Below are positions 9,401-11,817 of a stretch of 64,000 nucleotides of DNA, in pieces. Numbering within the stretch: the stretch's first letter is position 1; each line of letters opens with the position of its first letter. This DNA comes from Eledone cirrhosa (taxonomy: Eukaryota): NCBI GenBank assembly GCA_964016885.1, contig OZ024750.1, forward strand, positions 1,054,001 to 1,118,000. The letters run 5' to 3'. The position numbers and the translations under genes are program-made. Under the pieces are notes generated by a model, which searched no databases, was not told where the DNA came from, and worked only from the letters and a program-made list of their open reading frames with translations.

Positions 9401-10401
9401 TTAATTGACTATATCTGGGCGATTTCGCTGTCGAAATATTCGATAAATATTCCGTCGCAGCCGACGCGAAGGGCTAGTTACGGTTATTTGTTGGAGATTT
9501 CTTCATAGAAGCCTTATTCTTATAGCCTGGTCTATTCGATTTTTTTATATAGTTAATTATGCTAATTGGGAGAGGAAATGGTATATATTTTATCCGGTGA
9601 TTCTATAGACATGTTTTATGATACACACACATATATATATATATATATATATATATATATATATATATATATATATATATATATATATATATATATATAT
9701 ATATATATATATATATATATATGTATCTATATACATATATATATATATATATAATATATGTATCTATATACATATATATACAACAATATTACTAAACCGA
9801 CTACCGTCGGTTTAGGATATATATATATATATATGTATCTATATACATATATATATATATATATATATATGTATCTATATACATATATATATATATATAT
9901 ATATATATATATATATATATATATATATATATATATACATATATATATACACATATATATATATATATGTATCTATATACATATATATATATATATATAT
10001 ATATATATATATATATATATATATATATATATATATATATATATATATATATACCCTTTATTATTTCCTTACCTTATAAAATTGTTTTTTCACAAAAAAG
10101 TATTCTGTCTCTTATATATTCCATGTGCCATTACCAACCTCAATTTTCTCTCTCTCTCTCTCTCTCTCTCTCTCTCTCTCTCTCTCTCTCTCTCTCTCTC
10201 TCTCTCTCTCTCTCTCTCTCTCTCTCTCTCTCTCTCTCTCTCTCTCTCTCTCTATATATATATATATATATATATATATAGATATAGATAGGTAAATATA
10301 CACGGGTGTGTATGATTGTGTATAGAAGATTATATTAATAAGAGGAATTCCAACTTTGTCTGACAGTTGAAAATTGAAAACTCGACTGTCACCACATATC
10401 A

Positions 10402-10440
10402 TGAACCTGAAGATTGCGAAAGCATGAAAGTACTTGTTCA
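10402..10440 (+). ncRNA. Minimal type I hammerhead ribozyme with intact core
   Basis: TGAAC-CTGAAGA-T-TGC-gaaa-GCA-T-GAAA-GTAC-TT-GTTCA. It has a 5-bp stem I, a GNRA-capped stem II, a palindromic stem III (AGTACT) and a CUU cleavage triplet. Confidence 0.8.
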
Positions 10441-10572
10441 ATTAACACTTAGAATTTAATATTCTATCATACTATTTCATTATAATACCTCATTATAATA
10501 CCGTATTATATATATTTTAAAGGATTGTAAATAAAACGAGTAAATCAGACAAAGTTGGAATTCCTCTTATTA

Positions 10573-11817
10573 ATATATATATATATATACATATATATAT
10601 ATATATATATATATATATATATATACATATATATATATATATACATATATACACATATATACATATATATATATATATATACATATATATACATATATAC
10701 ATATATATACATATATATATATATATATATACATATATATACATATATACATATATATACATATATACATATATATATATATATACATATATACACATAT
10801 ATACATATATATATATATATATATACATATATATACATATATACATATATATACATATATACATATATATATATACATATATACATATATATATATACAT
10901 ATATACATATATATATATATATATACATATATATATATACATATATACATATATATATATATATATATATATATACATATATATATATACATATATATAT
11001 ATACATATATATATACATATATATATATACATATATATATATATATACATATATATATATATATATATATATATACATATATATATATACATATATACTT
11101 ATATATATATATATATACATATATATATATATACATATATATATATATATATACTTATATATATATACATATATATATATATATATATATATATACTTAT
11201 ATATATACTTATATATATACATATATATATATATACATATACTTATATATATATACTTATATATATATACTTATATATATATACTTATATATATATACTT
11301 ATATATATATACTTATATATATACATATATATATACATATATATATACTTATATATATACATATATATATACATATATATATACATATATATATACATAT
11401 ATATATATACATATATATATATACATATATATTTATATACATATATATTTATACACATATATATTTATATACATATATATTTATATACATATATATATAT
11501 ACATATATATATATACATATATATATATATACATATATATATATACATATATATATATACATATATATATATATATATATATATATATATATATATATAT
11601 ATATATATATATATATATATATATATATATATATATATATACATATATATATATATATATATATACACATATATATATATATATATATATATATATACAT
11701 ATATATATATATATATATATATATATATACATATATATATATATATATATATATATATATATATATATATATACACACACATATATATATATATATATAT
11801 ATATATATATATACACA
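10573..11817. repeat. Compound (TA)n/(TACA) microsatellite, about 1.25 kb
   Basis: Read directly; it is the source of the poly-YI ORFs. Confidence 0.98.

What the first reader, a model, noticed from the sequence alone, without database searches (positions are those of the whole stretch)
10276..10577. About 300-bp insert between microsatellites with an intact 39-nt minimal hammerhead bracketed by 33-bp inverted repeats
Inverted repeats 10331-10363 and 10545-10577 (tatattaataagaggaattccaactttgtctga) enclose the hammerhead at 10402-10440 and an AATAAA at 10529. Stem II has a GNRA tetraloop. Stem III is the self-complementary AGUACU, which cannot close as a monomer. By analogy with known PLE-type minimal hammerheads this suggests dimer-dependent cleavage. 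The insert looks like a MITE but carries a ribozyme.
Basis: partly seen in the sequence, partly recalled or inferred. Interest (0 to 1): 0.7.

Follow-up and report, generated by a model that had tools for sequence, protein, structure and literature searches.

The report
Back-to-back Penelope retrotransposon end insert
This 300-base insert is not a miniature DNA transposon but two back-to-back copies of the ribozyme-bearing end of a very abundant Penelope-type jumping gene, and where such copies begin likely records where the element's RNA starts and where its ribozyme cuts.

Summary
In detail: a perfect 33-bp inverted repeat and a minimal type I hammerhead. The MITE reading fails. The insert is the 3' end (pseudo-LTR plus tail) of a young Neptune/Nematis-type Penelope-like element (PLE): 2,905 exact hits and intact RT + GIY-YIG parents. 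It has two head-to-head arms in a (TA)n target: a complete tail-less arm (10363-10577) and an 83-nt truncated tailed arm (10281-10363). The 33-bp repeat is only their overlap. In an unbiased sample, 24 of 25 twins have one tailed and one tail-less arm, and 22 of 22 share a subfamily variant. This layout and dimer-type hammerheads are known PLE features. Less expected: 41 of 100 arms start at one site 31 nt below a TATA box, likely the transcription start. A minor class starts at the predicted cut site (13 loci against 2-7 hits at four control sites), possible fossil evidence of cleavage in cells. There are no RNA data. The scan noted this twin layout and cut-site stops before on other DNA.

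The parts
10253..10280 (.). (TA)n target, left side, next to a (TC)n run at 10147-10253
   Evidence: 40 of 42 tail-less and 37 of 50 tailed arms are followed by (TA)n
10281..10363 (-). Tailed arm: last 33 nt of the pseudo-LTR plus the ~50-nt tail (10281-10330), 5'-truncated; its outer end blurs into the TA repeat
   Evidence: matches the 3' end of parent L031 and tailed arms of other copies
10331..10363 (-). Left copy of the '33-bp inverted repeat' = overlap between the two arms; A10363 is a 1-nt microhomology at the head-to-head joint
10363..10577 (+). Tail-less arm: complete pseudo-LTR unit from the fixed start (position 0 = 10363) to the short 3' end
10363..10389 (+). 8-bp hairpin at the very 5' end of the unit
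   Evidence: fold
10402..10440 (+). Minimal type I hammerhead; predicted cut between 10435 and 10436 (unit 72|73)
   Evidence: excess of copies starting at the cut site
10477..10502 (+). 13-bp tandem duplication, shared only with the broken near-full-length copy L031 among the loci held
10530..10535 (+). AATAAA, chance level; no sign of use as a poly(A) signal
10545..10577 (+). Right copy of the '33-bp inverted repeat' = short 3' end of the unit
10573..11813 (.). TA-rich array, right side of the target

Best explanation
The insert is two head-to-head copies of the 3' end of a high-copy Penelope-like retrotransposon in a TA repeat, likely made when the element's enzyme nicked both strands and reverse-transcribed RNA from one source locus twice. 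Shown: the unit is the end of a ~4.2-kb element (unit - tail - ORF1 overlapping ORF2 RT/GIY-YIG - 3' UTR - unit - tail), and twins carry one tailed and one tail-less arm with shared variants. Inferred: one strand starts copying at the tail end and the other ~50 nt further in, as for the two internal start sites of the anole PLE. Inferred: the + arm ran to the 5' end of its RNA, a Pol II start set by CCAAT boxes and a TATA box in the 3' UTR; the - arm stopped after 83 nt; the two were joined on 1 nt of microhomology. The hammerhead is a passenger in this copy, predicted inactive as a monomer, so the RNA was copied uncut. It would cut only when two units pair (tandem transcripts), which probably explains the minor class of copies that start at the cut site.
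For: Parent: L031 and L123-L126 carry GIY-YIG and RVT_1 matches, DKG, YLDD and CX4CX2C upstream of the same unit; 505 homologues at E<=1e-20 among 7,995 scored. Copy number: 2,905 exact 31-mer hits and 133 unit-to-ORF junctions. Twins: 25 divergent and 0 convergent pairs among 93 terminal arms; 24 of 25 tailed plus tail-less (1 unresolved); 22 of 22 agree at a variant of frequency 0.48; 3.4 differences per pair against 6.2 in 2,000 shuffles. In the window neither arm contains the other, so neither is a copy of the other's DNA; no fold-back junction was found in the loci then held. Start hotspot: 41 of 100 arms at -5..+11 against 4 in the 264 nt above; 12 of 100 ORF-linked arms, 1.7 expected; TATAAAAG at -31 in 61 of 64 long arms, CCAAT at -130 in 59, ATTGG at -93 in 62. 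Cut-site hotspot: 16 hits (13 loci) against 3, 2, 7 and 6 at controls, p = 0.0001-0.004 depending on how controls are counted; 6 loci among 100 ORF-linked arms, 0.9 expected. Literature: inverted pseudo-LTR with a tail on one end (PMC3846280, PMC8557442); both strands nicked and extended, two internal RT starts, hammerhead not needed for insertion (PMC11167929).
Against: The start site and the cut are inferred from DNA only. 58 of 100 ORF-linked arms run on upstream past position -5, so most templates of long copies did not start at position 0. No cap-derived G: G precedes the start 85 times and A or C 377 times. The start coincides with an 8-bp hairpin, and 5' palindromes are known in pseudo-LTRs (PMC3846280). 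Several cut-site junctions have 2-3 nt of microhomology that blurs the end by a few bases; one (L189) looks like an internal deletion; the controls at 53 and 88 were not inspected. The ribozyme lacks the usual G10.1-C11.1 pair and has a CUU triplet whose U17 pairs with A14 in the co-fold minimum, so it may be weak. PMC11167929 found no RNA-seq reads ending at the anole cut site. Shared variants do not separate one RNA molecule from two RNAs of one locus, or from later gene conversion. The samples come from the first contigs listed and from exact-match young copies.
Confidence: 0.85

Rival explanations
1. MITE: a non-autonomous DNA transposon with fixed 33-bp terminal inverted repeats and a TA target, carrying a ribozyme.
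For: Perfect 33-bp inverted repeat and TA flanks.
Against: The element runs 50 nt beyond the left repeat; arm overlap varies from 33 bp to kilobases; 43 of 93 terminal arms had no partner in the sample; the unit is the end of an RT-endonuclease element.
Confidence: 0.01
2. Same PLE origin, but the fixed start is an RT stop or joining hotspot caused by the 5' hairpin, not an RNA 5' end, and the cut-site peak is a microhomology artefact.
For: The hairpin's 5' base is position 0; 5' palindromes are described in rotifer pseudo-LTRs; microhomologies occur at cut-site joints; there is no cap G.
Against: Ends pile up at the far (5') foot of the hairpin, and 0 of 100 lie at 24-29 where RT would first meet it; 42 of 100 arms pass it; a TATA box sits at the canonical distance; some cut-site starts join unrelated DNA or form a clean palindrome at 73 (L177, L179, L182/183, L184, L190).
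Confidence: 0.25
3. A separate non-autonomous family (SINE or retrozyme) with its own master loci, mobilised by the PLE, possibly through RNA circles.
For: At least 462 arms start at position 0 with a non-parental base upstream; retrozymes are proposed to derive from pseudo-LTRs (abstract and introduction).
Against: Short and long arms are the same sequence, and no short-specific variant stood out; no short head-to-tail array was seen among 100 sampled places, where tandem spacing is ~4.2 kb; short arms keep the 72 nt upstream of the cut site, so they are not ribozyme-cut monomers.
Confidence: 0.08
4. The inverted arm arises by self-priming or fold-back on one template, as proposed in PMC3846280.
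For: Many twins are near-perfect palindromes with shared variants.
Against: 0 fold-back joints at the hairpin; in the window the short arm has the tail and the long arm lacks it, so each holds sequence the other lacks.
Confidence: 0.08

Closest known systems
Endonuclease-bearing PLE insertions with an inverted pseudo-LTR and a tail on one end (Adineta Pen2a, D. virilis Penelope, Naiad; PMC3846280, PMC2377424, PMC8557442; passages read)
   Same: Head-to-head arms, tail on one arm, partial tandems, (TA)n target without a readable duplication, 5' palindrome.
   Different: Here about 40% of arms have one fixed start below a TATA box; the tail is ~50 nt rather than 30-40; the promoter motifs lie upstream of the start, whereas D. 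virilis Penelope has a TATA-less internal promoter. A TATA/Inr is noted in Pen2a.
Neptune/Nematis clades (PMC8557442)
   Same: C-terminal GIY-YIG, CX4CX2C linker, DKG, TA target, hammerhead near the 3' end.
   Different: The clade was not fixed by a tree. ORF1 and ORF2 overlap at a TTTTTTA heptamer; the paper's Fig. 1 legend mentions a frameshifted ORF1 in some PLE type, but the figure was not visible.
Minimal PLE hammerheads with small palindromic helix III (PMC4209133, parts 1-2 of 4 read)
   Same: Type I core, short helix I, palindromic helix III, dimer requirement, oppositely oriented pairs 100-700 bp apart.
   Different: U-U instead of G10.1-C11.1, short helix II, CUU triplet; indirect genomic sign of cutting in cells.
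Anole PAc (Poseidon) in vitro (PMC11167929, parts 1-2 of 4 read)
   Same: Two internal RT start sites bracketing the tail, both strands extended, AT-rich target, uncut RNA as main substrate.
   Different: There the tail lies inside the ORF start and no reads ended at the cut site; here the tail is 5' leader and some copies start at the cut site.
Non-LTR retrozymes (10.64898/2026.07.22.740005, part 1 of 5 read)
   Same: Short non-coding hammerhead unit of PLE origin.
   Different: No short tandem arrays; the unit is not bounded by cut sites; it is contiguous with an autonomous element.

Membership tests
Penelope-like element (EN+) | RT followed by a C-terminal GIY-YIG endonuclease | tested here: met
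   L031 pieces pass both Pfam cut-offs; in L123 GIY-YIG passes and RVT_1 is 27.6 against 29.6 bits; DKG and YLDD present
Penelope-like element (EN+) | Partial tandems forming pseudo-LTRs | tested here: met
   4 of 4 fetched tandems; 133 unit-to-ORF junctions
Penelope-like element (EN+) | Inverted 5'-truncated copy with the tail on one end only | tested here: met
   24 of 25 twins
Penelope-like element (EN+) | Hammerhead in the pseudo-LTR | tested here: met
   (89 of 90 arms)
Penelope-like element (EN+) | Single ORF | tested here: not met
   two overlapping frames; the legend in PMC8557442 allows a frameshifted ORF1 in some types
Neptune/Nematis clade | CX2-5CxxC motif between RT and EN | tested here: met
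   CX4CX2C at residue 650 of ORF2
Neptune/Nematis clade | Placement in an RT tree with named references | not tested
   no named PLE references were fetched
Minimal dimer-type hammerhead | Core boxes, stems I and II, palindromic helix III | tested here: met
Minimal dimer-type hammerhead | G10.1-C11.1 pair | tested here: not met
   U-U at the base of stem II
Minimal dimer-type hammerhead | Cleaves as a dimer, not as a monomer | not testable with these tools
   only the co-fold and the genomic 5'-end excess
MITE | Fixed terminal inverted repeats at both ends of all copies | tested here: not met
MITE | Target-site duplication and a transposase partner | tested here: inconclusive
   no duplication can be read in TA repeats; the partner found is an RT element; no transposase search was run
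Non-LTR retrozyme | Short head-to-tail tandem units, each with a hammerhead | tested here: not met
   tandem spacing ~4.2 kb; no short arrays among 100 of 2,905 places

The most novel reading that the evidence does not exclude
This family's insertions are a fossil map of its RNA ends. A TATA/CCAAT promoter in the 3' UTR starts RNA at the pseudo-LTR, internal RT initiation at the first tail turns the 5' 270 nt into a built-in SINE-like product (about 40% of all arms), and the dimer-dependent hammerhead does cut in germ-line cells, leaving copies that start exactly at the cut site. That would show in vivo activity for a ribozyme class whose role in PLEs is open.
Probability: 0.45. Interest if true: 0.6.

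Novelty: new member of a known kind. Interest (0 to 1): 0.35.

Why it matters
The insert itself is an ordinary PLE scar, and it shows how PLE ends get mistaken for MITEs. The family is useful because it is young, has intact copies and thousands of ends to count. It gives testable positions for the transcription start, the two RT start sites and the ribozyme cut. PMC8557442 calls hammerhead function in these elements unclear, and PMC11167929 found no RNA ends at the cut site in the anole element.

Tried and rejected
Cap-derived G at the 5' joint: suggested, but that ranking was biased by my query; unbiased counts were G 85 and A/C 377 (T not counted), so rejected. Fold-back self-priming at the hairpin: 0 joints. 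A-to-G excess among rare variants shared by both arms (lead from e1-10280452): 1 of 5, no support (the 71 twin loci may include duplicates). Poly(A) signal: chance level. Rfam: no hammerhead family at gathering score or at E<=10. Expression: no RNA holder listed. Contigs of three coded runs were laid; depth rises at the unit start in X4, but the run type is unknown and contig depth cannot show levels, so it was not used. A stimulatory structure below the TTTTTTA heptamer: only a weak fold of -5.8 kcal/mol, pseudoknots not modelled. An ORF-start pattern from the broken copy L031 hit only itself. The sequence look-up in earlier findings was blank. The 2017 paper on dimer-cleaving PLE hammerheads is recalled; it is not held and was not read.

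Full report
Observation. The two 33-mers are exact reverse complements and maximal, and a type I minimal hammerhead lies at 10402-10440. My descriptor found 2 hits in the window and none in 30 shuffles. Rfam has no matching hammerhead model. The AATAAA (10530) is expected in half of the shuffles. Positions below are counted from window 10363 = 0; the predicted cut is at 72|73.

What it belongs to. A DNA search of G000 gave 110 matches from 40 scored of 571 candidates. Copies share a start at position 0 and end either at a short end or about 50 nt further, in a tail, before (TA)n. One locus continued upstream into RT and GIY-YIG coding sequence. A 31-mer next to the ribozyme has 2,905 exact hits. 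Four tandems fetched whole show unit - tail - ORF1 (449 aa, no Pfam match) overlapping ORF2 (775-aa open frame, RT + GIY-YIG) - ~335-nt 3' UTR - unit - tail; three arms have both frames intact. ORF2 has DKG, YLDD and a CX4CX2C linker and 505 homologues among 7,995 scored, the named eukaryotic ones from bivalves. This fits an endonuclease-bearing PLE of the Neptune or Nematis type as described in PMC8557442 (passages); no tree was built.

Anatomy of the window copy. Minus strand 10363 to 10281 is the last 33 nt of the unit plus the tail. Plus strand 10363-10577 is the whole unit without the tail. The inverted repeat is the overlap of the two arms. In the first 100 listed places (all on contig C1), 93 terminal arms formed 25 divergent and 0 convergent pairs. 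Of these, 24 had one tailed and one tail-less arm (1 unresolved), all 22 scorable pairs agreed at a variant of frequency 0.48, and pairs differed by 3.4 variants against 6.2 in 2,000 shuffles. So both arms come from one source locus, or were homogenised later. In the window each arm holds sequence the other lacks, and no fold-back joint was found, so two separate copying events on RNA are inferred. The anole element nicks and extends both strands and starts at two internal sites that bracket the tail (PMC11167929, parts 1-2 of 4). The inverted copy with a tail on one end is described in PMC3846280 (passages) and PMC8557442.

Fixed start. Of 100 arms, 41 start at -5..+11, 4 at -269..-6, 38 further up (binned together because my alignment window and a 3' UTR microsatellite limit resolution there), 9 at +12..+63 and 8 at +64..+79. 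Long arms carry TATAAAAG at -31 (61 of 64), CCAAT at -130 (59) and ATTGG at -93 (62); the 64 may count an arm twice where loci overlap. In contigs of run X4 the listed differences miss both CCAAT boxes and the ribozyme core, and the one change in the TATA box keeps the consensus; one stem III loop variant is at 15% (weak evidence). Among the first 100 of 133 ORF-linked arms, 12 start at -5..+11 (1.7 expected; one of these alignments did not reach its anchor), but 58 run on upstream. So long copies mostly come from multimeric or circular templates. Whether short copies come from the leader of tandem mRNA or from short RNAs started at the many promoter-bearing 3' ends is unresolved. The cap-G idea failed. 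An 8-bp hairpin begins at position 0 and is the main rival. D. virilis Penelope also draws its promoter from the upstream copy's 3' UTR, but it is TATA-less and internal (PMC2377424, passages).

Ribozyme. The core is intact in 89 of 90 arms that span it; young copies make this weak evidence of selection. One twin with a G8 change in both arms (L046/L059) suggests that cutting is not needed for insertion. Stem III cannot close in a monomer. The dimer co-fold swaps stem I and pairs the palindromes, but its minimum also pairs A14 with U17, which would hinder cutting (that NUU triplets cut slowly is recalled). Such motifs cut weakly and only as dimers in vitro (PMC4209133, parts 1-2 of 4). Patterns demanding two non-parental bases before a position gave 16 hits at 73 and 3, 7, 6 and 2 at 53, 76, 81 and 88. 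The 16 are 13 loci, one of which looks like an internal deletion. Five of the 7 hits at 76 are twins whose partner arm ends at 71-74; the 6 at 81 are 3 junction events and one duplication; 53 and 88 were not inspected. The binomial p is 0.004 with raw control counts, and 0.0015 or 0.0001 after inspection. Among ORF-linked arms, 7 rows from 6 loci start at 71-79 against 0.9 expected; that bin had first been seen. I put real cleavage at about 60%.

Novelty. The layout, the ribozyme type and the TA targeting are known. Searches listed no paper whose title or abstract describes promoter-fixed short copies or copies starting at the cut site. I read only the passages named above, 15 of the 34 papers were listed, no supplements were read, and subscription papers such as Arkhipova 2006 are outside the library. 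Earlier notes of this scan report twin-arm PLE insertions in this and other genomes and cut-site stops in another genome (unchecked notes, seen). Verdict: new member of a known kind; interest 0.35.

Noticed in passing
window 48210-48266 (+): A second, unrelated type I hammerhead (CUGAUGA core, long stem II, stem III CCACUGG, 7-bp stem I) that could fold as a monomer.
   Followed up: no
L123:6037-6127 (G000:C1): ORF1 and ORF2 overlap by 91 nt at a TTTTTTA heptamer in the ORF1 frame, unchanged in all 25 locus records covering it (some are the same copy). Possible -1 frameshift; a Met at residue 48 of ORF2 is the alternative.
   Followed up: partly
L180/L181, L177: Copies in which the cut-site base is joined to the element's own ORF interior in the same orientation; L180/L181 is an 845-bp direct repeat. 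Suggests template jumps from a cut RNA or a circular template.
   Followed up: no
L006, L022, L029, L087, L193, L196: Short reiterated copies of the arm's first bases at head-to-head joints, as if RT re-primed several times at the RNA end.
   Followed up: no
G000:C1:97368738-97377140: Three units in tandem at ~4.19-kb spacing, a possible source of multimeric transcripts.
   Followed up: no
window 6042-6428 and 28442-28728: Two tandem pairs (211 and 156 nt) of one other repeat family; they resemble mariner-type ends (recalled, not tested).
   Followed up: no
L031 (minus strand, about 6100-6215 from its right end): A ~110-bp repeat with a flanking duplication interrupts the RT of this copy; the same repeat occurs near several other loci. 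L031 also holds a second, oppositely oriented GIY-YIG element.
   Followed up: no
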